From an uncultured delta proteobacterium (GTDB lineage: Bacteria > Desulfobacterota > Desulfobacteria > Desulfobacterales > JAHEIW01): a DNA stretch of 32,000 nucleotides. Below are positions 7,571 through 19,406 of the stretch, piece by piece. Position 1 is the first letter of the stretch, and each line of letters opens with the position of its first letter. Where the stretch lies: assembly GCA_963706575.1 (NCBI GenBank), contig CAVPNL010000001.1, positions 206,311-238,310 on the forward strand, in the 5' to 3' direction. The notes below the pieces were generated by a model, which searched no databases, was not told the origin of the DNA, and was given only the letters and a program-made list of their open reading frames with translations. The position numbers were made by a program, and so were the translations under genes.

Positions 7571-7693
7571 CACCGTTGGCAAAGAGGCAGGCAACTCTCG
7601 AGTAGTTCAATAATTCTTGACAGAAAACCTTTCCAGCTTCAACCTCTCAGAAGCAAAGGACGGGCAATTGAAAACAGGAAATCGGCTGCAGGA

Positions 7694-8314
7694 TCATTTC
7701 TTTTGCGCGAGCAAAATCCGGTTATTCTTTTTGCGGGATTTTTCGATTTGCTTGTCTGTTCCCCAGCGCCTGAACAGATCGTGTTCGATGCCCATGTAGT
7801 CGAACACCTTGCCGATGGTCTGGTCGATGATATCTTCGATGGTCTCGGGTTGGTGGTAGAATGACGGCACCGGGGGCAATATGTGGGCGCCCATTTCGGC
7901 AGCCAGAGTCATCAGGCGAAGGTGTCCCACATGCAGCGGTGTTTCCCTGACCACCAGAACCAGTTTGCGCTTTTCTTTCAACGTCACATCCGCCGTCCGC
8001 ACCAGCAGGTTTTCATTATAGGAATTGGCGATAGCGGAAAGCGATTTAATGGTACAGGGTATGACGACCATGCCTTCGGTCAAAAAGGAGCCGCTTGCCA
8101 GGGATGCGGCCATATCCTTATGATCGTAGACGAAATCCGCCATGGTTTCAACATCAGCTGGCTTGTAGCTGGTTTCGATTTCGATATTTAGCCGGCCGGC
8201 GTTGGAAATGATCAAATGGGTTTCGAAGTCCGTTTGCCGCAGCACGTCCAACATGCGTACCCCGTAAGTGACCCCGCTGGCCCCCGATATGCCGATCACG
8301 ATTCTTTTAGCCAT
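7694..8314 (-). CDS. ubiX: UbiX-family flavin prenyltransferase (prFMN synthase)
   Basis: The N-terminus KRIVIGISGASGVTYGVRMLDVL, the motifs LVVRETPL and IMPP-like LPPVPSFY, and a length of about 200 aa are all typical of UbiX/Pad1. Confidence 0.9.
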   Translation of the reverse strand: MAKRIVIGISGASGVTYGVRMLDVLRQTDFETHLIISNAGRLNIEIETSYKPADVETMADFVYDHKDMAASLASGSFLTEGMVVIPCTIKSLSAIANSYNENLLVRTADVTLKEKRKLVLVVRETPLHVGHLRLMTLAAEMGAHILPPVPSFYHQPETIEDIIDQTIGKVFDYMGIEHDLFRRWGTDKQIEKSRKKNNRILLAQKK

Positions 8315-8413
8315 TAATTTTTCCTTTTGGTTTAAAAACCTTATTTTTTTATATATGATTTTGGGTTAAATGAATATATTTTAACGTTTATCCTCAGAAT
8401 TTTTTTGACGAGA

Positions 8414-8803
8414 TCAAGTTTCAGAAGCAAGCCGGGCCAGAATCATCTCCACCAGGGTCTCAGTGTTGCGGACAACATGCTGGATGCCTTTAGGGGCAAG
8501 GTTGTCCCAGTGGATTCCGGCCGTGACAACGACCTGGGTTTTTAACGCAGCCGCCAGAATTTCGGCAGCGGCCTTGGCCAGTTCGTCTTCCTTGTGCCCC
8601 ACCAGGCAGATAACGGATGCGCTGGAACTGGTAACATCCGGGTCTTTGAGACTCGGGCGCGGCTGGGCCACCGCCACCGCTCCGATATGCGGTTTTTCAC
8701 CGCCCCAGATAGCCACCAGCACATCCTCGCCGATCAATCGGACGCTGGCGGACAGATTATAAGCATCTTCCTCGGTTTTTATAATAAATTCTTGGATTGT
8801 CAT
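8414..8803 (-). CDS. lpdD: LpdD-like small accessory protein of UbiD-type decarboxylases (prenylated-flavin chaperone family)
   Basis: The protein is 129 aa. The motifs WGGEKPHIGAV and VTAGIHWDNL resemble the GGxxPHIG and TAGIH motifs I recall from Lactobacillus plantarum LpdD. Its start codon directly abuts the stop of the upstream gene. Recognition is from memory, not a search. Confidence 0.5.
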   Translation of the reverse strand: MTIQEFIIKTEEDAYNLSASVRLIGEDVLVAIWGGEKPHIGAVAVAQPRPSLKDPDVTSSSASVICLVGHKEDELAKAAAEILAAALKTQVVVTAGIHWDNLAPKGIQHVVRNTETLVEMILARLASET

Positions 8804-10015
8804 TTAAAAAATTTCCAACGCAGCGTTAACAACTGCCCGGGCAAAGGCTTCATCTTCCATGTGGGCCTGGACTTCGACAATTTGGATTTGAGAATTCAAT
8901 TTTTCACGAAGCTCTTCGATAAAAATGCGATCCTCTTCGGGATTGTGTGTCGGGTTGCCCGGCATGTCCACGGACGACCACCCGTTAAGCGGTATCATCA
9001 TTCTTACCGGGCCCGCGGCACGGTTCAGTTTTTCCGCAAATACCTGGGCCACTTTTTTTAATTCATCCGGTGAAATCCGCAGCCAGGTGCGAAATTTATC
9101 CAGATCGTATTTTGCGCGTTGATGGTGCTCGGGCGTATATCTGGATTTAGAAGGCGTAATATGATTTACACTGCAGGTGGCAATGATCTGAGGGATTCCA
9201 ATCTTGCCGGCCGATTCCAGGCGATTGGGGCCCGCATCCCTCGTAAAACCGAACAGGTGTTCACCAACCCCTCCGGGCGCCAGATCGACGACACCCTGAA
9301 ATAATTTTTGGGAAATCATTTCCTCCATAGCGCGGTCGCAGATCCCGGCGGCATGGAAGCCGATGACCTGGTAGCCTGCTTTTTGCAATTCGGCCTGAAC
9401 CCGACTGGCACATTCATCGCAGGGTCCCAGCATGGTCAGTGCGATGGCCGTACTTTTGCCCGTTCCGGGTGAAGTGACGTTGCCTTGAACCATCCCGGCA
9501 AGGGCACAGGCTGCCCGATCAAAAACATTTTTAAGCAAATCCGAAAGCCCCGACAATTCGATGACCGAATGAAAAAGGATAATGTCACCGGTACCGATAT
9601 AGCGGGTGGAAAGACCGGGGAGGGCCGCGGCCGAAGAAATCATCAATTTGGGAAAACCGAAGGGCAGGGACCGCATCACTTCAGTAACCATCAGAGAGCC
9701 GGTGGCACCGCCCATGCCGGTAACCCCGTGGATTTTGCCTTCCACTTGCAGTTGCTTGGCGATGGTGGAGGCCCCCGCGATGGTGATGTTGGTTATCCGG
9801 GCGCGATCTTTCGACTGGCGGATGTCTTCAAAGCGGCTTCCCCCCGCTTCAGCCACACGATCCGGCAGAATATCGGCTTCCGAAGCCCCGTCACCGCGCA
9901 TCGAAATATCCATTAGCAGGGCATTGAGCCCGAGCGACTCCACCTGCTCCTTGAGGTATAAGGTTTCTTCCCTTTTGGTATTCAGGGTAGAGATAATCAG
10001 AACAGTCTTTTTCAT
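8804..10015 (-). CDS. Tm-1-like ATP-binding domain protein (UPF0261 family), copy 1
   Basis: The protein is 403 aa. The N-terminus KKTVLIISTLNTKREETLYLKEQV matches the UPF0261 pattern (xIxxxGTxDTKxEE). It also has GMGGATGS and an overall two-lobe layout. Confidence 0.7.
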   Translation of the reverse strand: MKKTVLIISTLNTKREETLYLKEQVESLGLNALLMDISMRGDGASEADILPDRVAEAGGSRFEDIRQSKDRARITNITIAGASTIAKQLQVEGKIHGVTGMGGATGSLMVTEVMRSLPFGFPKLMISSAAALPGLSTRYIGTGDIILFHSVIELSGLSDLLKNVFDRAACALAGMVQGNVTSPGTGKSTAIALTMLGPCDECASRVQAELQKAGYQVIGFHAAGICDRAMEEMISQKLFQGVVDLAPGGVGEHLFGFTRDAGPNRLESAGKIGIPQIIATCSVNHITPSKSRYTPEHHQRAKYDLDKFRTWLRISPDELKKVAQVFAEKLNRAAGPVRMMIPLNGWSSVDMPGNPTHNPEEDRIFIEELREKLNSQIQIVEVQAHMEDEAFARAVVNAALEIF

Positions 10016-10039
10016 CGGCTATATTTTAGTAAAGTGTTG

Positions 10040-10112
10040 CTCACGCAAAGCCGCTTAGCAAGTAAGGTTTAAAGCTAAAAATCTTCTTTGCGACGTTGCG
10101 TCTTTGCGTGAG
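10040..10112 (-). other. Intercistronic stem-loop between the CoA ligase and the Tm-1-like gene
   Basis: A perfect 11-bp inverted repeat, ctcacgcaaag (10040-10050) / ctttgcgtgag (10102-10112), encloses 51 nt that contain two tctttgcg direct repeats. No U-run follows on the coding (minus) strand. Confidence 0.5.
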
Positions 10113-10123
10113 GCCAATTAAGG

Positions 10124-11779
10124 TTAGGAACTTTCCTGTTTTACTTTCTCGGCGATTTCCTTTTTAAGCGTCTCTTTATTGACTTTTCCGGAATCGCCGA
10201 CGGCCGGAAATTCGGACACGACCTCCAAGCGTTCCGGCAGTTTGAACATGGCCAGCTGTTTGCCCTTCAGGAATTCCACCATCTCATCGAAGGCAAAATC
10301 CTGGCCGGCTTTGGGTATCACATAAGCGCAGGCGCGTTCACCCATCTCTTTGTCAGGGTAGCCGACAATAGCCACCGAGGCCACCTTGGGGTGATCGTTT
10401 AACAATCCCTCGATTTCAGCCGGATAGATGTTTTGGCCGCCGCGAATAATCATGTCTTTTGAGCGGCCCAGAATCCACAGGCATTCCTGGTCGAATTTGA
10501 CGATGTCTCCGGTGGTGGTCCAGCCATCGGGGTCGAATACCGTGGCGGTAAGCTCCTCATCACGGTAATAGCCGGCAGGCGCGTGGGGGCCTCTGAAATA
10601 GAGGATGCCGGGCTCTCCATCCGGCACTTTATTGCCGTCTTCATCCAACAGGCGTACCTTGTTGCCGGGCAGCATGCGGCCGACGGTTCGGCGTCTGAGG
10701 TCTTTGGTATCCTCCACCCGGCATCCGGATACCGAGCCCATATCCTGGGTGCCCAGGTCGCTGGTGATGACGGCACCGAAGGCCTGTTCTGCTTCTTCGG
10801 CAATCTGGGGTGAGAGGTAGCCGCCGGCAGAGCGAATAAAACGCAAAGAGCTTAAGTCATATTTGGAGGTGTCGCATTCCAGCATCCGCACCAGGTGGGT
10901 GGGGACCACACCGATGGCAGTAGCCTTTTCTTTTTCTATCAGGGCCAGGGCGTCTTGCGGGACGAACTCTTCCAGCATGACTGTTTTGGCGCCGGCCAGC
11001 GGCGCTGCAAAGTAGGTCAGAGTTCCGGCTGCACCGCCGGCGTGCGGGGCAATCGCCATGGTAATATCATTGTTGTTCAGGCCCCAGATGCTCACGCGTC
11101 CCTTTGACGTGCAGACACGGGGGGCGGTAGGCCATTCCACCAGCTTGGGCAGCCCGGTGGTGCCGGAAGTGGTTGTCAGCAGGGCGACATTCCAGAGCGG
11201 ATCCAGTCGTCTTTCGTTAAGCACATTTTCATCAATGGGATTTTCAGCGGCCTCCCGGGCCAATTGGGTCAGAGAATAGGTGTTCTCCGGAGCTGAATCC
11301 GGCACGGTGTCGTCAAAAAGGAAAATATTTTTTAGATGCGGAAAGCGCTGTTGCAGGTCCTTATACATTTCAAGATAATCAAAATTGCGGTATTCATGAG
11401 GAATCACCACCGCTGTGGCTTCCGTTCTTTCTACCATGTATTCCAATTCTCTTTGACGCAGATACGGATAGACCGTCAGAGATATGAGGCCGGCTCTTTC
11501 GCTGGCAATTCTGGCCAGAAAGCCGTAAACACTGTTTGGGGACTGAATAATAATACGTGAATATTGCGGGATTCCCATTTGAACCCAGGTAGCGGCAATT
11601 CCGTCCACTAGGCGTTTGGCCTGCGCCCATGTCACGCGAAATTTGGAATCCACCAGCGCTTCCTGGTCGCCGTACTCGCGGGCATTTCTATTCCAGAAGT
11701 CGTAAAAGAGCTCCTGGGTCCAGTATCCTTCGTTTAAAAATTCGTCCACCATCTCTTTTTGATAACGAATGGGTTTCAC
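10124..11779 (-). CDS. AMP-forming acyl/aryl-CoA ligase
   Basis: The gene has a GTG start with GGAGG 7 nt upstream. Motifs are TTSGTTGLPKLVEW, TGDIV...GRSKDMIIRGGQNIYP and a C-terminal GKVNK. Confidence 0.85.
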   Translation of the reverse strand: MKPIRYQKEMVDEFLNEGYWTQELFYDFWNRNAREYGDQEALVDSKFRVTWAQAKRLVDGIAATWVQMGIPQYSRIIIQSPNSVYGFLARIASERAGLISLTVYPYLRQRELEYMVERTEATAVVIPHEYRNFDYLEMYKDLQQRFPHLKNIFLFDDTVPDSAPENTYSLTQLAREAAENPIDENVLNERRLDPLWNVALLTTTSGTTGLPKLVEWPTAPRVCTSKGRVSIWGLNNNDITMAIAPHAGGAAGTLTYFAAPLAGAKTVMLEEFVPQDALALIEKEKATAIGVVPTHLVRMLECDTSKYDLSSLRFIRSAGGYLSPQIAEEAEQAFGAVITSDLGTQDMGSVSGCRVEDTKDLRRRTVGRMLPGNKVRLLDEDGNKVPDGEPGILYFRGPHAPAGYYRDEELTATVFDPDGWTTTGDIVKFDQECLWILGRSKDMIIRGGQNIYPAEIEGLLNDHPKVASVAIVGYPDKEMGERACAYVIPKAGQDFAFDEMVEFLKGKQLAMFKLPERLEVVSEFPAVGDSGKVNKETLKKEIAEKVKQESS

Positions 11780-11821: not shown

Positions 11822-12352
11822 CTAGTCTTCCTCTTTTTTAGATGCGGCGCGTTTGGCCTTAAGACCGGCTTTAAATGTTTCCCAAAATTGCCTGTCGGTA
11901 TCTTTCCAGGCCGCTCCCCAGCGTTTTTCGAAATAGGAAACCGGTAGACGGTCATGCCAGGACTTCCAGGGATCGCGGCCTTCCTTTTTTGCGATCAATA
12001 CATCCGTCAAATAGTCAATAATGTTTGTCAGCTCTTCTTTGGGCAAATAAGACACCGCGCCCTCTTTGATCGATCGCACAAGATTATCCGGGCTCCAGGC
12101 ATGCGCGGTCAGCATGACCGCCGGGATGTTTTTGCGGGTCGCAATTTCCAGCAGACCGTAACCGTCAACCCCCATAATATCCAGGATCACCAGATCAAAC
12201 GGTTGCGATTCCAGCATTTTCCGGGCTTCCTTAAATGAAGGCGCGGTTACCAACTTACACATCGGCAGTAAATCGACCAATGTGTCCAGAACATCCTGCT
12301 CGTCGTCGACTGCCAGGACCCGTTTGCCATCCAATAACTTATGCTCTGCCAT
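11822..12352 (-). CDS. Single-domain response regulator (CheY-like receiver with an uncharacterised ~55-aa C-terminal tail, no recognisable HTH)
   Basis: VLAVDDEQDV, DLVILDIMGVDG (phospho-acceptor Asp), MLTAHAW and YLPKE match the conserved receiver-domain positions. Confidence 0.8.
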   Translation of the reverse strand: MAEHKLLDGKRVLAVDDEQDVLDTLVDLLPMCKLVTAPSFKEARKMLESQPFDLVILDIMGVDGYGLLEIATRKNIPAVMLTAHAWSPDNLVRSIKEGAVSYLPKEELTNIIDYLTDVLIAKKEGRDPWKSWHDRLPVSYFEKRWGAAWKDTDRQFWETFKAGLKAKRAASKKEED

Positions 12353-12521: not shown

Positions 12522-13928
12522 CTAAAGGCCTAGCTCAGACCATCTTGCCTGAACCTTTTTTACGATTTCCGGATCCAGCTCGATGGGAATTGGCTTGTCT
12601 TTCCAGTCATAGGGAATCGTGGCATCCAGCAGGAGCCGGCCGGTAATCTCCCTGGCATTTATGGGAAGCGAGGGGTCAAGCGGTGTTGATCTTCCGCGTT
12701 TAATCACCTGAGACCGGTTGGGCTGGAACCGGAAGCTCAGGGCATACATGACCCGCGGGATATCCCAGGGATCAATATCTTCATCCACGACGATAACCGT
12801 CTTCAGTCCATAGGCACCCATCTCGGTAGAAATAGCCGCGGTCAGAACCTGATCGGCATGCCCGGGATACATCTGCTTCATGGAGATGATGGCGAGAAAC
12901 CGTCCGGATCCTTCCGGCGGGCAGTAAACCCCCTTCAAGCCCGGTATTTTCATGGCCAGCAGCTGCTGCCACAGGGTCGCGCCGTATGAAAGTGCCATGG
13001 TCATATGCGTGTCGGTGACTGCTCGGCCCACGGTGGTTCCCCATAAAATGGGGTTGTTTCTGTGGGTGACGCATTTGACATCGATGTAATTGCGGGGATC
13101 CGTCCCCACCCCGGAATAATAGCCGGTATATTCTCCAAACGGCCCTTCTTCCATGAATTTATCGGCATCCACTTCACCTTCGATGACGATTTCGGCATGA
13201 GCCGGTATGGGCAGATCCACGGTTTCTCCCTTCACCACTTCAACGGCTTCGCCTCGCAGAGCGCCGTACACATCATATTCCGATACAAATGCAGATACAC
13301 GGGCCGCCCCTAAGACAAAGAGCAGCGGGTCGCATCCGATCACCGAAGCCACCGGCATGGGTTTGCCCATGGCCTGGTATTTCTTCAGCATGATGTCGGC
13401 GTGTTTTCCTTTGATGAACTGGGTGCCGATTTTGTCTTTCTCTAAAAGCTGGCTGCGGTAGGTCCCCAGATTCACCCATCCGCTCTCCGGATCCTTGCTG
13501 ATGATGAAATGGGCCGTACCGATATAGCGTCCGCCGTCAAGCGGATACCACTGGGGAACCGGGAATTTAAAAAGGTCGATTTGATCGCCGGTTAATATAT
13601 TTTCTTTACACGGTGCGCTTGATGATGCCACTTCTTTAGGCGCTATCAAGTTTTCACCCAGCTTGGCCCATTCTTCATATAGATCCCCCAGCGTGGATTC
13701 AAGCGGCATGCCCATAATCAAAGCCAGTCGCTGGGTTGTGGTGCAGACACTGGTGATGACCGGCGTGTCGTAGTCTTTGACATTTTCAAATAGGAGTGCC
13801 GGACCGCTTTGCTCTTCGTTAAGCTTGGCAATATGCGACAGCTCCAGGTTCCAATCGACTTCGGCCGTGATCCGTTTGCACAGACCCGTTTCCTCGCCTG
13901 CTGCAATAAAATCCCTCATGTCTTTCAT
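12522..13928 (-). CDS. UbiD-family prFMN-dependent (de)carboxylase
   Basis: The protein is about 468 aa. The N-terminus MKDMRDFI...LLFENVKDY and the EGPFGEYTGYYSG motif are typical of UbiD enzymes. AAGGAGG lies 8-9 nt upstream of the ATG at 13928; the track start at 13949 is a TTG. Confidence 0.9.
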   Translation of the reverse strand: MKDMRDFIAAGEETGLCKRITAEVDWNLELSHIAKLNEEQSGPALLFENVKDYDTPVITSVCTTTQRLALIMGMPLESTLGDLYEEWAKLGENLIAPKEVASSSAPCKENILTGDQIDLFKFPVPQWYPLDGGRYIGTAHFIISKDPESGWVNLGTYRSQLLEKDKIGTQFIKGKHADIMLKKYQAMGKPMPVASVIGCDPLLFVLGAARVSAFVSEYDVYGALRGEAVEVVKGETVDLPIPAHAEIVIEGEVDADKFMEEGPFGEYTGYYSGVGTDPRNYIDVKCVTHRNNPILWGTTVGRAVTDTHMTMALSYGATLWQQLLAMKIPGLKGVYCPPEGSGRFLAIISMKQMYPGHADQVLTAAISTEMGAYGLKTVIVVDEDIDPWDIPRVMYALSFRFQPNRSQVIKRGRSTPLDPSLPINAREITGRLLLDATIPYDWKDKPIPIELDPEIVKKVQARWSELGL

Positions 13929-13978
13929 AAAACATTTCCTCCTTTTCAAATTAATAAAATTGCCTTTGGTTAATATAT

Positions 13979-15046
13979 TTACGGAATCTTAATTCGTTTC
14001 ATAGCCTGTTCCATCAAGAGCTGGCGGCCGCTTTTAGCGCCAATGACGGATTGCGTCTTGCGCTGGCTCCATACGGTTTCCGGGCGGGCCTGAACAATAA
14101 ACATGTTTTCCGGAAACGGGATATCTTTATCAATGGCCCATTCGATATCCATGGGGCGGCCGTAATGGTTTTCGATATTTTTAGCAGCGCTGACCAGCGC
14201 TTTGATTTCGTCATCGGCCAGGCAGCAGGTGCACTGCATATCTTCAGCGACATCCGCGTCGACGGTTTCCCCTTTTTCCAGATCATAGACACATTCGATG
14301 TGTTTGGTTGATATGGTCCTTTCATTGATTTCCAGCATGACCTTATCGACCACAAATTTATCCGGGTTGACAGAACCGGAAACCACGGTTTCGCCCAGTC
14401 CCCAGCTGCCCTCGATGAGGACCTTGGAAATATCACCGTTGGTCGGGTTCAGCGTAAACATAACCCCGGCGGCTTTTGAATTGACCATTTTCTGAATGCC
14501 TACACTGATGAGGACCTTGTCATGGGGAAAGTCGTTCTTAATGCGGTAAGCGATTGCGCGGGGGGTATATAAGCTGGCCCAGCAATTCTGAACTTTGCGG
14601 ATAATCTGATCCGCTCCCTGAATCCAGAGATAGGTGTCCTGCTGACCGGCGAAGCTGGCGGTGGGTAAATCTTCAGCGGTCGCGCTTGAGCGCACCGCTA
14701 CGGGAATCGATTCCACGGCACATTTTTCACACAGTCCGGAATATCCATCCTTGATGGCCTCGCTGACAGCATCCGGCATTGGGGTCTTTTTGATTAACGC
14801 CTGCACGTCGGCGCTGGCATTATTGAGGGCCGCCACATCATCGGGGTTCAGATCGGAAACCCTATCGATAATCCGGGTTTTAATATCGGCATCGGTAATG
14901 AATAATAAATAACTGTCAGTAGTTACCGCAAATCCGGGCGGGACCCGAATAGCGGCTTTGATCATTTCTCCCAGGCTGGCATTCTTGCCGCCGACAATGG
15001 GGATTGAATTTTTATCCAGTTTTTCGAAATCCAGGATATAATCCAT
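13979..15046 (-). CDS. PEP-synthase N-terminal (ATP-grasp, PPDK_N) domain protein; phenylphosphate synthase beta-subunit-like (PpsB-like)
   Basis: Motifs are VGGKNASLGEM, VAVRSSATAEDLPTASFAGQQDTYL and DIEWA...IVQARPET. I prefer the start at 15046 (MDYILDF, with AAGGAAG 5 nt upstream); the alternative ATG is at 15061. Confidence 0.8.
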   Translation of the reverse strand: MDYILDFEKLDKNSIPIVGGKNASLGEMIKAAIRVPPGFAVTTDSYLLFITDADIKTRIIDRVSDLNPDDVAALNNASADVQALIKKTPMPDAVSEAIKDGYSGLCEKCAVESIPVAVRSSATAEDLPTASFAGQQDTYLWIQGADQIIRKVQNCWASLYTPRAIAYRIKNDFPHDKVLISVGIQKMVNSKAAGVMFTLNPTNGDISKVLIEGSWGLGETVVSGSVNPDKFVVDKVMLEINERTISTKHIECVYDLEKGETVDADVAEDMQCTCCLADDEIKALVSAAKNIENHYGRPMDIEWAIDKDIPFPENMFIVQARPETVWSQRKTQSVIGAKSGRQLLMEQAMKRIKIP

Positions 15047-15071
15047 ATTTGCTTCCTTCATAGCCTACCAT

Positions 15072-15177: not shown

Positions 15178-17034
15178 TTAGCCTGCTCGTTTAACAATCT
15201 CGACCACCCCGCTGTCGCCGTCCACTTTGACGATATCGCCGGTTTTGATCACCGATGTGGATATCCCGGTGCCGGTAACAGACGGTACGCCATACTCACG
15301 GCAGACGATGGCGGCGTGGCTGGTCAGTCCGCCAATGTCAGTCACCGCGGCTTTGATTTTGGTAAACACGGGTGCCCAGGACGGATTGGTGGACGGGCAG
15401 ACCAGGACCTCACCGGGCTGCAAATCCACAATGTCTTTGAGCCGTTTCAGCACACGGGCCGGGCCCTCGGCGAGACCGGCCGAAGAGGCGAAACCTTTGA
15501 TTTCAGAAACATCCTCGCCTGCGGTTGCGTCGACACCCTTGAGCCATTCTTTCACTTTATCCGTGGTGATACCCCACAGCATAATCGTAAAAGGTTCGGC
15601 CACTTCTTCGGGCGGGACGCCCAGAGCCGGGATGGGGTTCCAGTTGCCGGCGGCTTCAAGGATTTTTTTGCGCTTTTCGGCTTTAGCTTTATAGTAGTCT
15701 CCTCGCATGGGGATATCCACACCCAGCGCCCAGCCGGTTGACACTTCGGTCAGCAGTTGCGGAATTTCATAGCGGTTAAACATAAAGATGTCATCGACTT
15801 CGTTTAACATCCCGTTGTTAACCAGCAGTGTTCCCAATTCTCTGATCTTGGCAAACCAGATGGTGTGGAACCAGTGCTCAACCCAGAAGAGGTGATCCTC
15901 GGCGTATGTATAAATGGTTCTGACCGTGTTGTAAGCATCATCAAAGGCTTTTCGATCGTCGTCGGTTTTGATGAGTTTGCGATATTCGGCCACAATTTCA
16001 TCTCTTTGTTTTTCAATCTCATCCAGTGAGCGCTCGATGTTCTCGCCGTTTTCCAGCCGTTCGACATAGCCTTTAATGTAACTGTAAGGAATGGACGGAT
16101 CGGTCAGCCAGCTGCCCTCATAATGAAACCAGCCGCTGCCGCAGGATACATAAAACCACGGGTCTTTGGCTTTCTCATACTCTGCCAGCCAATTTTTTCC
16201 ATTCTCTGTGTTTTGAAGTTCGGCGACCTTGTCTTCCACCGACTTGTCACTCTTGAGAATAGCGGAAACTTCCTTGGCGGAAGCCGCCATTTTGGAAAGG
16301 CGGCAAAGCTCTTCTTCAGGCTTGAACATGGATACATAGGCGCCGGCCACCATTTTGCCGATGGCACTTTCACTGATACCGGGAAAAAGCTTGCGGGCGA
16401 CATCGGCAAACATCAGATAGGCCAGGTAGGTCAGGTTCAGCATCTCGAAATGATACTGCCAGCCCTTAAACATCTGGTTGACCAGTTTGTCAAAGGACTC
16501 AATCAAATAGTAACTGTCGTACACCCCGGTGGGCGCCGGCAGCACCTGATCCTCGGGAACATATTTCGGCAATTCGCTGGGGACCCTCACCGCGGCCATT
16601 TCTTCGCCGAGCGCTTTAAACTTGGTCAACCATTTGTCCCAGAGTTCATTATAATGTTCAAATACATAAAATACGCGTTTTTCAAAATACCCGGCTTTCT
16701 CACCGATGATTTCTTCCGGTGGCGGGGCGATAGCGCAGATGTACATGTAACATCCCACCATTCGTTGGGCGATTCCCTGTGCCGGTGGAATACAGAATAC
16801 GCGGGTGGTATACTGTGACAGGGAAATCTGCCAGGCTTCCTGAAAAATCAAATCCAGTGGCGGCATGGGCTCCGGGGCATGGATTTTGTCCTGATACCAG
16901 AATTGGGCCTTTTCCCAATCTGATCTGTCTTCTGAAAACAGGTGGTGGGAGGGGTACATTTCTTCCCAGCCTTCAAGTTCAGGAGGGACCTGAAACTCAT
17001 GCGGGTCCGGGAATCTTCCAGATTGATCGGTCAT
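15178..17034 (-). CDS. PEP-utilising enzyme with C-terminal phosphohistidine swivel domain; phenylphosphate synthase alpha-subunit-like (PpsA-like)
   Basis: AGGAGG RBS is present. The C-terminus VLVCPSTNPSWAPVFTKIKAAVTDIGGLTSHAAIVCREYGVPSV is the mobile His domain. The 618-aa size and pairing with a separate 355-360-aa ATP-grasp subunit match the split architecture of phenylphosphate synthase. Confidence 0.8.
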   Translation of the reverse strand: MTDQSGRFPDPHEFQVPPELEGWEEMYPSHHLFSEDRSDWEKAQFWYQDKIHAPEPMPPLDLIFQEAWQISLSQYTTRVFCIPPAQGIAQRMVGCYMYICAIAPPPEEIIGEKAGYFEKRVFYVFEHYNELWDKWLTKFKALGEEMAAVRVPSELPKYVPEDQVLPAPTGVYDSYYLIESFDKLVNQMFKGWQYHFEMLNLTYLAYLMFADVARKLFPGISESAIGKMVAGAYVSMFKPEEELCRLSKMAASAKEVSAILKSDKSVEDKVAELQNTENGKNWLAEYEKAKDPWFYVSCGSGWFHYEGSWLTDPSIPYSYIKGYVERLENGENIERSLDEIEKQRDEIVAEYRKLIKTDDDRKAFDDAYNTVRTIYTYAEDHLFWVEHWFHTIWFAKIRELGTLLVNNGMLNEVDDIFMFNRYEIPQLLTEVSTGWALGVDIPMRGDYYKAKAEKRKKILEAAGNWNPIPALGVPPEEVAEPFTIMLWGITTDKVKEWLKGVDATAGEDVSEIKGFASSAGLAEGPARVLKRLKDIVDLQPGEVLVCPSTNPSWAPVFTKIKAAVTDIGGLTSHAAIVCREYGVPSVTGTGISTSVIKTGDIVKVDGDSGVVEIVKRAG

Positions 17035-17297: not shown

Positions 17298-18284
17298 ATG
17301 TTGAATTTTAACCAGTTCCGTGTCTTTTATTATGCCGCCAAAAACTTGAATTTCACCGTTGCCGCCGGAGAGCTGTTCATTACCCAGCCGGCCGTTACCT
17401 CTCAGATCAAATCGTTCGAGGAGTTTTGCAACCTGAAGCTGTTTAAAAAAAGAGGACGCCGGATCTACCTGACAGATGAGGGCAAATCTCTTTATGTGCA
17501 TGCGGCCAAAATTTTTAAATATGAAAAAGAAATCGAACACATCATTGATGATATGCGTGAACTCAAGCGCGGAATCCTCAGTTTAGGGACGACGAAAGCT
17601 TACGCGCGTTATTTTATGCCGCTGATGATCACCACGTTTCATAAAAACTATCCCAACATTAAAATACAGCTGAACGAAGGCAGTTCACTGGAAATGATCC
17701 ACAGTTTGCTGGATTTTAAAATAGAGGTGGCGGTGATTGCCAGGACAGAAGATAACCCGGAGGTCCATTTTCTCCCGTTTAGCCGGGAAGAAATGGCGGT
17801 CATCGTTTCAACGGATCATCATTTGAGCAGGGAAAAAGCGACCACCTTTAAAGCGCTGTCTGCAGAACCCTTTATTATGAAAGAAAAAGGCTCAGGGACG
17901 CGCAAGCTGGTGGAAGAATTATTTGAAGCCGAGCAATGCACGCCTGACATTTTGATGGAAACCAGCAATACCGAGTTCATCAAACAGCTGGTGCAGCGCG
18001 GAGAAGGGGTTTCGTTTGTCGTGCGGGAAGCGGTTGCCGCCGAACTGAAAGAAAAGAAGCTGATTGCCGTTCCCCTGAAAGACCCAACAGTGTATCTGGA
18101 TGTCAGCATTGCCTACCTGAAAGGCCAGGTGCTTTCGCCGCCGGCCAGAGCCTTTGTCGATACCTTAATCGGTTTGAAGTCAGACGATTTGCACCCCATG
18201 GGAATCGGTCTGATGATGGCCAAAATGCTTACCCAGCGCAAGGAGGAGCAAAGAAAAATTTCGAAAATGAGGAAGTCCATATGA
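17298..18284 (+). CDS. LysR-family transcriptional regulator, copy 1
   Basis: The N-terminal wHTH is FRVFYYAAKNLNFTVAAGELFITQPAVTSQIKSFEE, followed by a LysR substrate-binding domain pattern. AAGGA RBS is present. Confidence 0.9.
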   Translation: MLNFNQFRVFYYAAKNLNFTVAAGELFITQPAVTSQIKSFEEFCNLKLFKKRGRRIYLTDEGKSLYVHAAKIFKYEKEIEHIIDDMRELKRGILSLGTTKAYARYFMPLMITTFHKNYPNIKIQLNEGSSLEMIHSLLDFKIEVAVIARTEDNPEVHFLPFSREEMAVIVSTDHHLSREKATTFKALSAEPFIMKEKGSGTRKLVEELFEAEQCTPDILMETSNTEFIKQLVQRGEGVSFVVREAVAAELKEKKLIAVPLKDPTVYLDVSIAYLKGQVLSPPARAFVDTLIGLKSDDLHPMGIGLMMAKMLTQRKEEQRKISKMRKSI

Positions 18285-18880
18285 GCGATCGACCTGTTTT
18301 CAAGCAAATTTATCAACTTGCCCAACCGTATCTAAACACGCGCTACAATGATGTCCACACTGAGATGTCCATGCAGCTTGCATACCAACTGCTAAGTGCC
18401 GAGGGAGGTCAGGAAAGTATTGTGATTCCGGCTATCATTCTGCACGATGTCGGCTGGCAAAAAGTTCCGGTAGCGCTTCATCTGAAGGCATTTGGTCCTA
18501 AGGCAACCTCACCGGAGATAAACAGGACTCACGAGAAAGAAGGCGTAAAGATCGCCCGAAAAATTTTAACAGAGATTAATTATGATAAGGAAAAAATTAC
18601 TGAAATACTCAAAATTATTGACGGCCATGATTCCAGAAAAAATTCTATTTCGTTAAATGATCGGATCGTTAAAGACGCAGACAAGCTCTGGCGCTATACT
18701 CAAAAAGGGTTTGAGGTAGACAACAATCGATTTGAAGAGACCGTCGCTGAAGGATTAAACCGCCTGCGCAAATATTTAGCCAGGTGGTTTTATACGGATA
18801 CGGCCTTTCAAATCGCAAAAGATGAACTCCAACAGCGGGAAAGAGAAGCTGACAATGATTCGAGGCTGGCCGGTAATTAG
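18281..18880 (+). CDS. HD-domain metal-dependent phosphohydrolase
   Basis: The H...HD...H...D pattern is present (VHTEMS, IILHDVGW, GHDSRK, KDADKL). An ATGA 4-bp overlap joins it to the LysR-1 stop. Confidence 0.75.
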   Translation: MSDRPVFKQIYQLAQPYLNTRYNDVHTEMSMQLAYQLLSAEGGQESIVIPAIILHDVGWQKVPVALHLKAFGPKATSPEINRTHEKEGVKIARKILTEINYDKEKITEILKIIDGHDSRKNSISLNDRIVKDADKLWRYTQKGFEVDNNRFEETVAEGLNRLRKYLARWFYTDTAFQIAKDELQQREREADNDSRLAGN

Positions 18881-19406
18881 TCGTGAGCAGGTTGGGGATT
18901 TTGGGCTCTTTTCATTGATTCAAAAAACGGTGCGCTCAGCACGCACGGGCGAAATCAGAGAGGTGCAGGCGATCCAATTTCCAGACTGGGTGTTGGTCCT
19001 TGCACTCACGCCGCAAGAGGAAGTCGTGATGGTGCGTCAATTCCGCCACGGCACCGAGCAGGTCTGTTTGGAGTTGCCCGGCGGGTTGGTGGATTCGGGT
19101 GACGATTCACCCGAATTATCCGCTCAGCGGGAACTGCTGGAAGAGACCGGATATCAAGCCGATGAAGTTGTACTTCTGGGAGAATGTTGCCCGCAGCCGG
19201 CGGTTTTGACCAATAAATGTCTTTTTTATCTGGCCCAAAATGCTGTCCGGGTTCAAACCCAGAACCTGGATGCCGGTGAGGATATCGAAATTTTGGAAGT
19301 TCCTTTAAAAGAGATTGCGGCTAAAATCAGAAACGAGGAAATCGATCACGGCATGGTGCTATTGGCCTTCTTCTATTTCTGGATGAAACAGGGGCAGATG
19401 GGATAG
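18855..19406 (+). CDS. Nudix hydrolase (ADP-ribose pyrophosphatase / NudF-like)
   Basis: The Nudix box is GGLVDSGDDSPELSAQRELLEETGY. I prefer the start at ATG 18855 (purine-rich gagaag upstream); the track start at 18822 is the alternative. It overlaps the HD gene 3' end. Confidence 0.8.
   Translation: MIRGWPVISREQVGDFGLFSLIQKTVRSARTGEIREVQAIQFPDWVLVLALTPQEEVVMVRQFRHGTEQVCLELPGGLVDSGDDSPELSAQRELLEETGYQADEVVLLGECCPQPAVLTNKCLFYLAQNAVRVQTQNLDAGEDIEILEVPLKEIAAKIRNEEIDHGMVLLAFFYFWMKQGQMG

What the first reader, a model, noticed from the sequence alone, without database searches (positions are those of the whole stretch)
8414..10015. Tm-1-like (UPF0261) ATP-binding protein translationally coupled to an LpdD-like prenyl-flavin accessory protein
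**Seen**
- The TAA stop of the 403-aa UPF0261 gene (8804-8806) is immediately followed by the ATG of the LpdD-like gene (8803-8801). There is no spacer and only a weak internal SD.
- UbiX lies 100 nt further downstream and UbiD upstream on the same strand.

**Established, to my knowledge**
- UPF0261 is the N-terminal ATP-binding module of tomato Tm-1.
- Bacterial members are biochemically uncharacterised and usually accompany a PEP-hydrolase-like TIM-barrel partner. That partner is absent here.

**Inference**
- This placement suggests an ATP-dependent role in prFMN handling, UbiD cofactor loading or activation, or the carboxylase reaction itself.
- Such a link has not been described, as far as I know.
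Basis: partly seen in the sequence, partly recalled or inferred. Interest (0 to 1): 0.65.

Follow-up and report, generated by a model that had tools for sequence, protein, structure and literature searches.

The report
Kinase-fold gene fixed in anaerobic phenol operon
A divergent member of the Tm-1/MarK ATP-binding kinase family is a near-invariant, so far ignored gene of the operon that strictly anaerobic bacteria use to carboxylate phenol, which makes it a testable candidate for the missing factor of that poorly understood enzyme step.

Summary
A 403-aa UPF0261 gene (8804-10015, minus strand) ends in TAA and directly abuts the ATG of a 129-aa LpdD-family gene (8414-8803). UbiX follows after 99 nt.

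They close an operon: PpsA-like, PpsB-like, PpcB-type UbiD, receiver protein, aryl-acid AMP-ligase, UPF0261, LpdD-like, UbiX. This matches the published phenol ('phe') cluster of Desulfatiglans anilini. There the UPF0261 protein (H567DRAFT_02057) is about 50-fold phenol-induced but was never discussed.

In 91 related loci:
- the ligase precedes UPF0261 in 72/73;
- UbiD lies upstream in 44/45;
- UbiX follows in 67/70;
- the LpdD-like gene is present in only 40/80.

The statement that the family is biochemically uncharacterised is outdated. MarK (2025) is a UPF0261 ATP-dependent phenol-OH kinase. This lineage keeps the ATP motif but has lost family-conserved acceptor-site residues (Leu replaces His304; His219 is Ser in most members). 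It coexists with PpsAB or with MarK-like paralogues, so it is probably not the primary phenol kinase.

My reading is an ATP-dependent phosphoryl-transfer accessory of the carboxylation module (about 0.4). Function is unproven.

The parts
15178..17034 (-). PpsA-like phenylphosphate synthase alpha-type subunit (618 aa, PEP-utilizers mobile domain)
   Evidence: PF00391 and NF006153 at 865 bits. Conserved upstream of the UPF0261 gene in 27/31 informative loci.
13979..15061 (-). PpsB-like subunit (360 aa, PPDK_N ATP-binding domain)
   Evidence: PF01326 at 1e-119. Present in 32/36 informative loci.
12522..13949 (-). UbiD-family carboxylase, phenylphosphate carboxylase beta (PpcB) type. It is the only UbiD in the window.
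   Evidence: UbiD_N, UbiD and UbiD_C domains. TIGR02724 513.5 bits against a cut-off of 469. Present in 44/45 informative loci at 78-96% identity.
11822..12352 (-). stand-alone receiver-domain protein (176 aa) inside the operon
   Evidence: PF00072. Present in 36/49 informative loci.
10124..11779 (-). aryl-acid AMP-ligase (551 aa), counterpart of D. anilini H567DRAFT_02058 ('2,3-dihydroxybenzoate-AMP ligase', phenol-induced, function unknown)
   Evidence: AMP-binding domains. Immediately upstream of UPF0261 in 72/73 informative loci. D. anilini data from PMC6114531 and PMC7500099.
8804..10015 (-). UPF0261 / Tm-1 / MarK-fold ATP-binding protein, 'clade A' (403 aa). This is the finding's gene.
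   Evidence: PF06792 plus PF23189. MarK 9MPY E=4e-56 and Tm-1 E=8e-49. ATP motif is N12-T13-K14. Acceptor-site positions in MarK numbering: G195=G, T196=P, H219=H, F283=H, I285=T, H304=L, H348=V.
8801..8806 (-). TAA-ATG junction (stop directly abutting start, same frame): translational coupling
   Evidence: Read directly from the sequence. Gap 0 in 25 of 43 orthologous junctions, and overlap or 2 nt or less in about 10 more.
8414..8803 (-). LpdD-family (PF21758) prFMNH2-chaperone-like protein (129 aa)
   Evidence: PF21758 at 5e-38. LpdD structures 8pzh and 8p4w at E=1.7e-6. H39, H70 and E72 correspond to LpdD H35, H61 and D63 and are invariant in 40/40. Present in only 40/80 informative loci.
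7694..8314 (-). UbiX flavin prenyltransferase (206 aa), 99 nt downstream of the LpdD-like gene
   Evidence: PF02441, NF004685 at 263 bits, TIGR00421. Downstream of UPF0261 in 67/70 informative loci.
17298..18284 (+). divergent LysR-type regulator of the operon
   Evidence: HTH_1 plus LysR_substrate domains. Conserved divergently upstream of PpsA in most long loci.
18281..19406 (+). HD-domain phosphohydrolase (18281-18880) and NUDIX hydrolase (18822-19406) after LysR. These are possible phosphatase or DMAP-supply functions.
   Evidence: PF01966 and PF00293. Conserved beside the cluster in L005, L008, L011, L012, L050, L068 and L090. An HD gene lies directly next to UPF0261 in L013, L092, L028 and L016.
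25973..27181 (-). second UPF0261 paralogue in the window ('clade B', 402 aa, 31% identical to the first)
   Evidence: PF06792 plus PF23189. Keeps D-T-K and His219. Its orthologues sit directly upstream of PpsA or the regulator in L038, L075 and L076.

Best explanation
**What it is**
- The 403-aa gene is, by synteny, the orthologue of D. anilini H567DRAFT_02057.
- It belongs to a narrow, divergent lineage ('clade A') of the UPF0261 / Tm-1 / MarK kinase fold.
- It is a fixed component of the phenol -> 4-hydroxybenzoyl-CoA operon of strictly anaerobic Desulfobacterota: PpsAB, one PpcB-type UbiD, an aryl-acid AMP-ligase, UPF0261, an optional LpdD-like gene, and UbiX.

**How I think it works**
- It binds ATP at the conserved N-terminal (D/N)-T-K site.
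- It carries out, or controls, a phosphoryl-transfer step on the aromatic intermediate at or just after the UbiD carboxylation. In other words, it handles aryl phosphate for a carboxylase that lacks the PpcA, PpcC and PpcD partners of the Thauera enzyme.
- It is not the primary phenol kinase. That role belongs to PpsAB, or to a MarK-like paralogue in loci without PpsAB.
- The LpdD-like gene coupled to it is a separate, dispensable prFMNH2 chaperone serving UbiX -> UbiD. Their abutting stop and start codons reflect operon packing in one sub-lineage.

**Shown**
- Fold and family.
- Operon membership and its conservation.
- Retention of the ATP motif.
- Remodelled acceptor site.
- Phenol-induced expression of the syntenic counterpart.

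**Inferred**
- ATP use.
- The aromatic or phosphoryl substrate.
- The step at which it acts.
For: **Family precedent**
- The only catalytic activity known for UPF0261 is ATP->ADP phosphorylation of phenolic hydroxyls (MarK, PMC12624787).
- The window protein matches MarK at E=4e-56 over its full length.

**Operon conservation**
- In 91 distinct loci, the ligase is upstream in 72/73, UbiD in 44/45, PpsB in 32/36, PpsA in 27/31, and UbiX is downstream in 67/70.
- The LpdD-like gene is dispensable (40/80) and was lost several times on the UPF0261 tree.

**Sister lineage**
- The sister UPF0261 lineage (44-47% identity) also lives in dikinase/UbiD/ligase clusters, but next to the ligase.
- In L100 it sits at the opposite end of the operon from UbiX and LpdD, beside a low-molecular-weight phosphatase-family (LMWPc) gene.
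- HD-domain phosphohydrolases (metal-dependent hydrolases) recur directly beside UPF0261.

**D. anilini clusters and proteome**
- Both aryl-phosphate-type pathways in D. anilini carry their own UPF0261. The phe cluster has 02057 and the ani cluster has 03869. The ani cluster has no UbiX.
- Replicate 1 areas (4-aminobenzoate / aniline / benzoate / phenol): 02057 = 0 / 5.0e7 / 5.3e7 / 2.5e9; 03869 = 5.4e9 / 6.5e8 / 0 / 0.
- On phenol, 02057 is about 65 times more abundant than UbiX (3.9e7) and reaches about 14-20% of PpcB and the ligase. That is the level of a pathway enzyme, not a trace cofactor-biosynthesis factor.

**Room for a missing function**
- The operon has no room for, and no homologue of, PpcC or PpcD.
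- Phenylphosphate carboxylase activity could not be measured in D. anilini extracts, and the authors infer 'a different catalytic mechanism' (PMC6114531).

**Division of labour**
- L016 is a compact operon with no PpsAB in the 17.5-kb locus: UbiD, ligase, clade-A UPF0261, LpdD, UbiX, a MarK-like UPF0261, and an HD-domain gene.
- This suggests the MarK-like copy is the kinase and clade A does something else at the carboxylase.
Against: **Altered acceptor site**
- Clade A has lost residues that are conserved family-wide in the acceptor site. His304 (69% of 134 representatives) is Leu.
- His219 (86% family-wide) is Ser in most clade-A members, although it is His in the window protein.
- Asp14 (92% family-wide) is Asn in the window sub-lineage.
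- Canonical MarK-type chemistry may therefore be altered or lost.

**Signals favouring a cofactor module**
- Pairwise-distance correlations put UPF0261 closest to UbiX (r=0.85) and LpdD (r=0.88). Correlations with UbiD (0.51) and the ligase (0.67) are lower.
- This could reflect a UPF0261/LpdD/UbiX functional module rather than linkage.

**Possible redundancy**
- Refolded D. anilini UbiD subunits alone were reported to convert phenylphosphoamidate to 4-aminobenzoate (PMC7500099). A phosphotransfer helper is therefore not strictly required in vitro.
- HD and LMWPc phosphatases could cover the dephosphorylation role.

**Gaps**
- There is no direct evidence for any substrate.
- Orthology to 02057 rests on gene order and protein lengths, not on sequence.
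Confidence: 0.4

Rival explanations
1. This is the first reader's idea: an ATP-dependent prFMN/UbiD activation factor. The clade-A protein would work with the LpdD-like chaperone and UbiX. It would load, mature (without oxygen) or exchange prenylated FMN in the PpcB-type UbiD, as NTP-dependent maturation or reactivation factors do for other complex-cofactor enzymes.
For: - Gene order is UPF0261, LpdD-like, UbiX, with stop/start abutment or overlap in about 35/43 loci.
- Where LpdD is absent, UPF0261 runs straight into UbiX, with gaps of 11-60 nt in many loci.
- UPF0261 distances co-vary best with UbiX (r=0.85, n=39) and LpdD (r=0.88, n=19).
- The acceptor site has departed from the MarK and family consensus.
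- PpsAB or a MarK-like kinase already covers phenol phosphorylation.
- Carboxylase activity of these UbiDs is notoriously not recoverable in extracts.
- How strict anaerobes oxidise prFMNH2 is an open question (PMC10865409, PMC13040415).
Against: - LpdD-like is absent in half the loci.
- In sister clusters the UPF0261 genes are separated from UbiX and LpdD, or occur without them (L100-L102).
- The D. anilini ani cluster has a UPF0261 but no UbiX. That UPF0261 is abundant in cells where UbiX is not detected.
- 02057 is about 65 times more abundant than UbiX.
- No fusion of UPF0261 with LpdD, UbiX or UbiD was seen among family representatives.
- The canonical L. plantarum LpdD system described in PMC10865409 involves no UPF0261 partner.
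- The co-variation may be simple linkage.
- The fold's only known activity is small-molecule phosphorylation.
Confidence: 0.3
2. A non-catalytic or regulatory ATP-binding subunit ('pseudo-kinase'). Clade A would have kept nucleotide binding but lost acceptor chemistry. It would act as an ATP-sensing or scaffolding partner, either of a canonical UPF0261 paralogue (clade B or MarK-like) or of the ligase/UbiD, much as Tm-1 acts by ATP-bridged protein binding.
For: - Rare substitutions occur at the most conserved family positions: N for D14, S for H219 in most members, L for H304.
- The sister lineage has E-E-K instead of D-T-K. In four of four loci it sits in tandem with, or one gene from, a paralogue that keeps D-T/S-K; three of those four also keep His219. 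This suggests heteromers of degenerate and canonical subunits.
- MarK is a dimer.
- Canonical paralogues occur near clade A in the window (25973-27181) and in L015, L016, L038, L075, L076, L079 and L081.
- UPF0261 is the fastest-evolving large protein of the operon. Its median identity to the window is 70%, against 90% for UbiD.
Against: - Clade A keeps T-K and the glycine-rich segments, and the window protein keeps His219.
- Most loci show no second UPF0261 within 10 kb.
- High expression on phenol fits an enzyme as well as a subunit.
Confidence: 0.15
3. Primary, cheaper phenol kinase. Clade A would itself phosphorylate phenol (ATP->ADP, one ATP equivalent), as an alternative or backup to the AMP-forming PpsAB.
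For: - MarK precedent.
- Gly195 is retained, and the pocket is more hydrophobic and lacks the ketone-binding His348, as expected for unsubstituted phenol.
- L073 and L074 carry UbiD, ligase, UPF0261, UbiX and Hcr-like genes with no PpsAB or other UPF0261 in the fetched locus.
- The energy-budget problem of sulfate reducers was raised in PMC6114531.
Against: - It coexists with PpsAB in 27/31 loci and with a MarK-like paralogue in L015 and L016. The role would therefore be redundant.
- His219, which contacts the phenolic oxygen in MarK, is Ser in most of the clade, and His304 is Leu.
- Phenylphosphate synthase activity in D. anilini is attributed to PpsAB.
Confidence: 0.1

Closest known systems
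MarK (Saro_1862) of Novosphingobium aromaticivorans, multiple aromatic kinase, PDB 9MPY (PMC12624787)
   Same: - Same two-domain UPF0261 fold, matched over the full length at E=4e-56 and about 31% identity.
- N-terminal T-K of the D-T-K ATP motif is kept.
- Gly195 is kept, and in the window protein so is His219.
- Both are encoded in aromatic-catabolism operons whose chemistry starts with phosphorylation of a phenolic OH followed by a carboxylation.
   Different: - MarK sits with a biotin-type acetophenone carboxylase (acvCDEF/hpeCBAD) in an aerobe. Here the partners are a prFMN-dependent UbiD, UbiX, an LpdD-like gene and a PpsAB dikinase in strict anaerobes.
- Pocket residues T196, F283, I285, H304 and H348 are P, H, T, L and V here. 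His219 is Ser in most of the clade, and D14 is Asn in the window protein.
- A truly MarK-like paralogue (40-45% identity, pocket G-T-H-F-V-H-F) exists separately in L015, L016 and L079.
Desulfatiglans anilini phe cluster gene H567DRAFT_02057 ('Uncharacterized protein, UPF0261 family', 403 aa) and ani cluster gene 03869 (PMC6114531, PMC7500099)
   Same: - Same gene order: PpcB-type UbiD (02059), DHB-AMP-ligase-like (02058), UPF0261 (02057), UbiX-like (02056).
- Nearly identical lengths: 468/552/403/193 aa against 475(468)/551/403/206 aa.
- Both have a PpsAB pair in the cluster and come from Desulfobacterota.
- 02057 is strongly phenol-induced at protein level.
   Different: - D. anilini has no gene between 02057 and 02056, so it lacks the LpdD-like gene. 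About half of the loci examined here are like that.
- Sequence identity could not be checked because the D. anilini sequence was not retrievable.
- Neither paper assigns or discusses a role for the gene.
Thauera aromatica phenylphosphate carboxylase PpcABCD with phenylphosphate synthase PpsABC
   Same: - Same pathway logic: phenol -> phenyl phosphate -> 4-hydroxybenzoate -> CoA thioester.
- PpsA-like and PpsB-like proteins are present.
- The UbiD here scores above the PpcB equivalog cut-off.
   Different: - Only one UbiD is present, so there is no PpcA.
- There is no gamma subunit, no HAD-type delta phosphatase and no PpsC in the operon.
- Instead the operon has a UPF0261 protein, an LpdD-like protein, a second type of AMP-ligase and nearby HD and NUDIX hydrolases.
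LpdD of Lactiplantibacillus plantarum (prFMNH2-binding chaperone of gallate decarboxylase LpdBCD; PDB 8PZH/8P4W; PMC10865409)
   Same: - The 129-aa neighbour belongs to the same Pfam family (PF21758).
- It aligns over 117 residues at E=1.7e-6.
- It keeps metal-site residues His35 and His61, with a carboxylate (Glu) at Asp63.
- It sits beside UbiX in a UbiD operon.
   Different: - The LpdD system as described in PMC10865409 involves no UPF0261 partner.
- Here the gene is translationally coupled to one, and is dispensable in half of the related operons.
Tomato Tm-1 N-terminal region and the bacterial UPF0261 + TBST/PEP-hydrolase TIM-barrel pairs (PMC5028733)
   Same: - Same fold (Tm-1 3WRW, E=8e-49).
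- The Lys equivalent to Tm-1 K20, which contacts ATP, is present.
   Different: - No TIM-barrel partner is fused or nearby in the window or in 102 loci.
- A fused PEP_hydrolase-UPF0261 protein does exist elsewhere in the family (P0338).

Membership tests
UPF0261 / Tm-1-like ATP-binding family | Both Pfam domains (PF06792 N-terminal, PF23189 C-terminal) above gathering score | tested here: met
   172.1 and 229 bits against a cut-off of 27. NCBIfam NF002674 scores 376.7 against a cut-off of 335.
UPF0261 / Tm-1-like ATP-binding family | Full-length similarity to solved members (MarK 9MPY, Tm-1 3WRW) | tested here: met
   E=4e-56 over residues 2-402, and E=8e-49.
UPF0261 / Tm-1-like ATP-binding family | N-terminal D-T-K nucleotide-binding motif (MarK D14/T15/K16; Tm-1 K20) | tested here: inconclusive
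   - The window protein has N12-T13-K14, so T and K are kept and D is replaced by N.
- D is present in 92% of 134 family representatives and in most of clade A.
- ATP binding itself was not tested.
MarK-type aromatic (phenol-OH) kinase | Acceptor-site residues reported as >90% conserved among MarK homologues: G195, H219, H304 | tested here: not met
   - G195 is kept.
- H219 is kept in the window protein but is Ser in most of the clade.
- H304 is Leu throughout the clade.
- H348, T196, F283 and I285 also differ.
MarK-type aromatic (phenol-OH) kinase | Co-localisation with acvCDEF/hpeCBAD-type (biotin-dependent) carboxylase and phosphatase genes | tested here: not met
   None of the 27 window ORFs scanned carries such domains. 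The partners are UbiD, UbiX, PpsAB and a ligase.
MarK-type aromatic (phenol-OH) kinase | ATP->ADP phosphorylation of a phenolic hydroxyl | not testable with these tools
   This needs an enzyme assay.
LpdD / PF21758 prFMNH2 chaperone (the 129-aa neighbour) | Family profile match and similarity to the solved LpdD | tested here: met
   - PF21758 at 129.7 bits, E=5e-38.
- LpdD 8pzh, 8p4w and 8po5 at E about 1.7e-6 over residues 9-125.
- The structure prediction was too poor to add anything (pLDDT 56.7, no significant fold match).
LpdD / PF21758 prFMNH2 chaperone (the 129-aa neighbour) | Conserved Mn2+-site residues H35, H61, D63 | tested here: met
   H39 and H70 are invariant. D63 is replaced by an invariant Glu72 followed by an invariant Asp73. 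This holds in 40/40 orthologues.
LpdD / PF21758 prFMNH2 chaperone (the 129-aa neighbour) | Specific binding of reduced prFMN and activation of a UbiD | not testable with these tools
   This needs anaerobic biochemistry.
Thauera-type phenylphosphate carboxylase PpcABCD | PpcB-type UbiD subunit | tested here: met
   TIGR02724 at 513.5 bits against a cut-off of 468.95.
Thauera-type phenylphosphate carboxylase PpcABCD | Second UbiD paralogue (PpcA), small gamma subunit and HAD-type delta phosphatase encoded with it | tested here: not met
   - There is one UbiD in the 32 kb window.
- Intergenic gaps in the operon are 29-169 nt, which leaves no room for a gamma gene.
- No HAD-family domain was found in the scanned ORFs.
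Strict-anaerobe phenol ('phe') cluster as in D. anilini | Gene order PpcB-type UbiD, DHB-AMP-ligase-like, UPF0261, UbiX, with PpsAB in the cluster | tested here: met
   - Window order.
- Published tags 02059, 02058, 02057, 02056, 02052 and 02051 and their lengths.
- The same order occurs in 91 loci.
Strict-anaerobe phenol ('phe') cluster as in D. anilini | Sequence orthology to H567DRAFT_02057 | not tested
   The D. anilini sequence could not be retrieved with the tools. The genome scan found only closer relatives.
UPF0261 + TBST/PEP-hydrolase TIM-barrel pair | A PF09370 partner gene adjacent or fused | tested here: not met
   - No PF09370 in the window ORFs.
- tblastn with the PEP_hydrolase domain of P0338 found nothing in the window or the 102 loci, 1.16 Mb in total.
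- This rests on a single query, so sensitivity is limited.

The most novel reading that the evidence does not exclude
**Claim**
Clade-A UPF0261 is the missing ATP-dependent component that makes the single-UbiD (PpcB-only) phenylphosphate carboxylase of strict anaerobes work.

**Most novel form**
- It would be the first nucleotide-dependent activase or reactivase of a prFMN enzyme.
- Together with the LpdD-like chaperone and UbiX, it would load, mature or exchange prFMN in UbiD without oxygen.

**What it would explain**
Carboxylase activity of these enzymes has never been recovered in extracts.
Probability: 0.27. Interest if true: 0.85.

Novelty: new variant of a known kind. Interest (0 to 1): 0.6.

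Why it matters
**The open problem**
- Anaerobic phenol carboxylation in sulfate- and iron-reducing bacteria is unresolved.
- Their clusters contain only one PpcB-type UbiD and lack the gamma and delta subunits of the Thauera enzyme.
- The carboxylase activity was not measurable in D. anilini extracts. The ATP cost, up to four equivalents, seems too high for these organisms (PMC6114531).

**What this gene offers**
- It is near-invariant in the operon and phenol-induced in D. anilini.
- It is ATP-binding by family membership and motif retention; ATP binding was not tested here.
- It is a concrete, clonable candidate for the missing factor.
- Since 2025 its family has had a biochemical precedent (MarK) that tells experimenters what to assay.

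**Possible payoffs**
- If it acts on the substrate, it extends the new UPF0261 kinase family to anaerobic, prFMN-dependent chemistry.
- If it acts on the cofactor, it would be the first NTP-dependent maturation factor for UbiD enzymes. That would help heterologous activation of recalcitrant UbiD (de)carboxylases used in biocatalysis and CO2 fixation.

**Wider pattern**
- At least four UPF0261 lineages are deployed in these clusters: clades A, B, MarK-like, and an E-E-K lineage.
- The E-E-K lineage occurs in tandem with, or one gene from, a second UPF0261 paralogue that keeps the D-T/S-K motif.
- This points to an unrecognised enzyme toolkit of anaerobic aromatic degraders.

Tried and rejected
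**Searches that gave little**
- The look-up of encoding contigs with the window protein itself found no exact record.
- The homologue search with the LpdD-like protein returned only close single-domain relatives of 123-151 aa. It showed no fusions and gave no view of distant contexts.
- The Schleinitz 2009 Geobacter paper (PMC2698347) is not held. Whether the Geobacter cluster carries the gene could not be checked.
- The D. anilini protein sequences could not be retrieved. Orthology is therefore by synteny and length only.

**Structure**
- Prediction of the LpdD-like protein was restricted to close homologues and gave pLDDT 56.7.
- The PDB fold search gave no significant match. Proteasome-assembly chaperones appear only among weak hits with TM up to 0.40. 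This is uninformative.
- A co-fold of UPF0261 with LpdD-like or UbiD is not possible with the single-chain tool.

**Signals**
- The promoter and terminator scan over 7500-17400 found no excess over shuffles and no intergenic terminator on the minus strand. It neither supports nor splits the operon.

**Ideas considered and set aside**
- ATP regeneration from phenyl phosphate (phenyl-P + ADP -> ATP coupled to carboxylation). On my own rough thermodynamic estimate, the phosphate ester's energy is probably needed to drive carboxylation. I keep it only as a low-probability sub-case.
- A prenol/DMAP-forming kinase feeding UbiX. Nothing supports it, and a conserved NUDIX/HD pair is a more conventional DMAP route.
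- Replacement of PpsC. This is disfavoured because the UbiD/ligase/UPF0261/UbiX core persists in loci without PpsAB.
- The window's Flavin_Reduct gene at 6998-7570 as a conserved PhdC-like maturase. It has no counterpart next to the cluster in the other loci.
- A chance hitchhiker gene. This is rejected by the conservation and the proteome data.

Full report
**1. The observation**

On the minus strand the sequence reads ...GAA ATT TTT TAA ATG ACA....
- The 403-aa ORF (10015->8804) stops at TAA (8806-8804).
- The next triplet, ATG (8803-8801), opens a 129-aa ORF that ends at 8414.
- The spacer is zero, both ORFs share a frame, and only a weak GGAA lies upstream.
- UbiX (8314->7694) follows after 99 nt.

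Domain searches identify the run of minus-strand genes:

| Coordinates | Gene | Evidence |
|---|---|---|
| 15178-17034 | PpsA-like | PEP-utilizers |
| 13979-15061 | PpsB-like | PPDK_N |
| 12522-13949 | UbiD | TIGR02724 'phenylphosphate carboxylase beta', 513.5 bits, cut-off 469 |
| 11822-12352 | stand-alone receiver protein | Response_reg |
| 10124-11779 | AMP-ligase | AMP-binding domains |
| 8804-10015 | UPF0261 | PF06792 + PF23189 |
| 8414-8803 | LpdD-like | PF21758 |
| 7694-8314 | UbiX | NF004685 |

A LysR regulator is divergent at 17298-18284. The promoter and terminator scan showed nothing above shuffles. The coordinates and the description in the finding are correct.

**2. The two proteins**

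The 129-aa protein:
- It matches PF21758 at 5e-38. This family is labelled 'LpdD_chaperone' in the precomputed annotation.
- It matches the L. plantarum LpdD crystal structures at E=1.7e-6.
- LpdD is a prFMNH2-binding chaperone with a His35/His61/Asp63 Mn site (PMC10865409).
- In 40 of 40 orthologues the two histidines are invariant, and Asp63 is an invariant Glu followed by Asp.
- A structure prediction was too weak to add anything.

The 403-aa protein:
- It matches MarK (9MPY) at E=4e-56 and tomato Tm-1 at E=8e-49 over its whole length.
- MarK was published in August 2025. [quoted passage not shown]

**3. The operon is a known one, and the gene is already in it**

The D. anilini phenol cluster (H567DRAFT_02049-02059) contains:
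- ppsB (02051) and ppsA (02052);
- a UbiX-like gene (02056);
- 'Uncharacterized protein, UPF0261 family' (02057, 403 aa);
- a '2,3-dihydroxybenzoate-AMP ligase' of unknown role (02058, 552 aa);
- ppcB (02059, 468 aa) (PMC6114531, PMC7500099).

This is the window's gene order, with near-identical lengths.

Replicate 1 of the published proteome (Table_1 of PMC7500099, with the 02057 and 03869 rows), given as areas for 4-aminobenzoate / aniline / benzoate / phenol:

| Protein | 4-AB | Aniline | Benzoate | Phenol |
|---|---|---|---|---|
| 02057 (UPF0261) | 0 | 5.0e7 | 5.3e7 | 2.5e9 |
| 02058 (ligase) | 8.5e8 | 8.0e8 | 6.6e8 | 1.26e10 |
| 02059 (PpcB) | 1.5e9 | 8.8e8 | 8.8e8 | 1.8e10 |
| 02056 (UbiX) | 0 | 0 | 0 | 3.9e7 |

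- The aniline cluster has its own UPF0261 (03869, 411 aa), between pasB and a CoA ligase. Its areas are 5.4e9 / 6.5e8 / 0 / 0.
- Neither paper mentions these genes in the text.
- The authors could not measure phenylphosphate carboxylase activity.
- They note the missing gamma subunit and the energy-budget problem, and infer 'a different catalytic mechanism'.

**4. Neighbourhood statistics**

Sources of loci:
- The genome scan gave 12 loci at 55-93% identity.
- The metagenome scan gave the best 80 of 335.
- Exact look-ups gave four more.

After removing duplicates there are 91 distinct loci.

| Feature relative to UPF0261 | Present / informative |
|---|---|
| AMP-ligase immediately upstream | 72/73 |
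| UbiD upstream | 44/45 |
| PpsB upstream | 32/36 |
| PpsA upstream | 27/31 |
| Receiver protein | 36/49 |
| UbiX downstream | 67/70 |
| LpdD-like gene between UPF0261 and UbiX | 40/80 |

- Where the LpdD-like gene is present, the junction has gap 0 in 25 of 43. About 10 more overlap (ATGA or TAATG) or are spaced by 2 nt or less.
- On a UPF0261 tree, LpdD presence is patchy. Deep branches have it, and several sub-lineages show clean deletions that leave 11-60 nt between UPF0261 and UbiX.
- The three loci without UbiX (L013, L092, L028) have an HD-domain gene beside UPF0261.
- In L073, UbiX is followed by 4-hydroxybenzoyl-CoA-reductase-type genes by Pfam. L075 and L079 have ORFs of matching sizes in the same position. 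This is consistent with the phenol -> 4-hydroxybenzoyl-CoA -> benzoyl-CoA pathway.
- Caveat: the loci are related Desulfobacterota sequences chosen by similarity, so they are not independent samples.

**5. This lineage is not a MarK orthologue**

In MarK numbering, the ATP motif is D14-T15-K16. The acetovanillone site uses G195, T196, H219, F283, I285, H304 and H348.

| Protein or lineage | ATP motif | Acceptor-site residues |
|---|---|---|
| Window protein | N-T-K | G, P, H, H, T, L, V |
| Most of clade A | D-T-K | Ser at position 219 |

Source.

Among 134 family representatives (50% clusters nearest the query), conservation is D14 92%, K16 90%, G195 94%, H219 86% and H304 69%. Clade A is therefore atypical for the whole family, not only for MarK. 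It is also narrow: the best 50%-cluster representative is only 54% identical, in a family of 533 representatives at E<=1e-30.

Three further UPF0261 lineages occur around these clusters:
- Clade B is the second UPF0261 gene of this window (25973-27181). It has D-T-K and His219. Its orthologues lie directly upstream of PpsA or the regulator in L038, L075 and L076.
- A MarK-like lineage is 40-45% identical to MarK, with pocket G-T-H-F-V-H-F. It occurs in L015, L016 and L079. L016 is a compact operon with unrelated flanks and no PpsAB: LysR | UbiD, ligase, clade A, LpdD, UbiX, MarK-like, HD.
- A sister lineage is 44-47% identical to the window protein and has E-E-K in place of D-T-K. In four of four loci it sits in tandem with, or one gene from, a second UPF0261 paralogue that keeps D-T/S-K; three of those four also keep His219:
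  - L097: UPF, UPF, UbiX.
  - L100: UbiX, LpdD, an ORF with no Pfam hit, PpsA, PpsB, UbiD, ligase, LMW phosphatase, UPF, UPF.
  - L101: UPF, ligase, UPF.
  - L102: UPF, UPF, ligase, UbiD, PpsA-like.
- More distant relatives (L098, L099) have no UbiD or UbiX nearby.
- Fusions in the family involve PEP-hydrolase, GNAT or TIR domains, never LpdD, UbiX or UbiD.
- No TIM-barrel partner occurs in the window or in any locus.

**6. Weighing the mechanisms**

Points favouring a substrate-level phosphoryl role:
- The family precedent.
- Each aryl-phosphate or aryl-phosphoamidate pathway has its own paralogue.
- The association persists when UPF0261 is far from UbiX and LpdD, or without them.
- Phosphatases (HD, LMWPc) recur as neighbours.
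- LpdD is dispensable.
- Protein abundance is about 65 times that of UbiX.

Points favouring a cofactor or UbiD-activation role:
- The fixed order UPF0261, (LpdD), UbiX, with tight coupling.
- The altered acceptor site.
- Redundancy with PpsAB or MarK-like kinases.
- A mirror-tree signal:

| Pair | r | n |
|---|---|---|
| UPF0261 - UbiX | 0.85 | 39 |
| UPF0261 - ligase | 0.67 | 39 |
| UPF0261 - UbiD | 0.51 | 39 |
| UPF0261 - LpdD | 0.88 | 19 |

- That signal may be linkage or a rate effect. UPF0261 is the fastest-evolving large protein of the operon, with median identity to the window of 70% against 90% for UbiD.
- In the L008-type loci every other gene is 82-94% identical to the window but UPF0261 only 68-70%.

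Points favouring a non-catalytic ATP-binding subunit:
- The degenerate sister lineage paired with paralogues that keep the ATP motif.
- The rare substitutions in clade A.

My ranking is:
- substrate-level phosphoryl-transfer accessory of the carboxylation module, 0.4;
- prFMN/UbiD activation, 0.3;
- regulatory or scaffold subunit, 0.15;
- primary phenol kinase, 0.1.

None of these is demonstrated.

**7. Comparison and novelty**

- The fold, the operon type, LpdD and UbiX are all known.
- The gene's presence in the D. anilini clusters is on record, but uncommented.
- New here:
  - the gene is near-invariant across the 91 loci of this operon type examined here;
  - its lineage is a divergent branch of the family with a remodelled acceptor site;
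  - it is translationally coupled to an LpdD-family chaperone in about half of the operons;
  - several other UPF0261 lineages populate the same clusters.
- In the searched library no paper connects UPF0261 or Tm-1 with UbiD or UbiX.
- I classify it as a new variant of a known kind.
- Interest is 0.6. It is not surprising in kind, but it gives a direct handle on the unresolved carboxylase of strict anaerobes.

Noticed in passing
It lies between a Flavin_Reduct gene and a molybdopterin oxidoreductase, after acyl-CoA dehydrogenase, SDR, OYE-type and AMP-binding genes. Its orthologues sit directly upstream of PpsA or the regulator in L038, L075 and L076.
   Followed up: partly
window 18281-18880 (+) and 18822-19406 (+): An HD-domain phosphohydrolase and a NUDIX hydrolase follow the LysR regulator and are conserved beside the operon in at least seven related loci. 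HD genes also lie directly next to UPF0261 in L013, L016, L028 and L092. They could dephosphorylate aryl phosphate, or make DMAP from DMAPP for UbiX. Neither role was tested.
   Followed up: partly
L015:6329-7591 and L016:12187-13410; also L079:202-1404: A MarK-like UPF0261 paralogue (40-45% identical to MarK, MarK-type pocket G-T-H-F-V-H-F) follows UbiX in L015 and L016. L016 has no PpsAB in its 17.5 kb locus. L015 is cut at the contig end just upstream of UbiD, so PpsAB cannot be judged there. An ADP-forming kinase may therefore replace the AMP-forming dikinase in some operons.
   Followed up: partly
L097:9001-11894, L100:9001-11482, L101:5564-10233, L102:7573-10251: A sister UPF0261 lineage with E-E-K instead of the D-T-K ATP motif, and no His219, sits in tandem with (L097, L100, L102) or one gene from (L101) a second UPF0261 paralogue that keeps D-T/S-K; three of these four also keep His219. 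This suggests heteromers of a degenerate and a canonical subunit. L100 also carries a low-molecular-weight phosphatase-family (LMWPc) gene between the ligase and the pair.
   Followed up: partly
L008, L011, L012, L050, L068, L090 versus window 8804-10015: In these loci PpsA, PpsB, UbiD, the receiver gene, the ligase and UbiX are 84-95% identical to the window's, and LpdD-like is 76-82%. UPF0261 is only 68-70% identical and carries D/S instead of N/H at the two key positions. This points to either allelic replacement or accelerated evolution of this one gene inside an otherwise conserved operon.
   Followed up: partly
window 6998-7570 (+): A 190-aa Flavin_Reduct (HpaC-like) gene lies divergently next to UbiX. 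The prFMN maturase PhdC has this fold (PMC13040415). The gene has no counterpart next to the cluster in the other loci, so it may simply be a flavin reductase.
   Followed up: partly
window 11822-12352 (-): A stand-alone receiver-domain protein (176 aa, no output domain) is inserted between UbiD and the ligase. It is present in 36 of 49 informative loci. Its role is unknown.
   Followed up: no
window 48-1142, 1153-1650, 1747-3171 (+); 3398-5179 (-); 5612-6922 (+): This stretch holds an aldehyde:ferredoxin oxidoreductase C-terminal part (cut by the window start), a 4Fe-4S protein, a weak radical-SAM-like protein, a second DHB-AMP-ligase-like enzyme (593 aa) and a DAO-type flavoprotein. Several of these recur downstream of UbiX in related loci (L020, L047, L054, L057, L065, L078, L090).
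   Followed up: no
L073:11815-15748; similar ORFs in L075 and L079: In L073, Pfam shows FAD_binding_5, 2Fe-2S and MoCoBD subunits (4-hydroxybenzoyl-CoA reductase type) directly after UbiX. L075 and L079 have ORFs of matching sizes in the same position. D. anilini annotates such genes as 'CO dehydrogenase' subunits. In the 32-kb window, no such gene was found among the ORFs of at least 110 aa scanned.
   Followed up: partly
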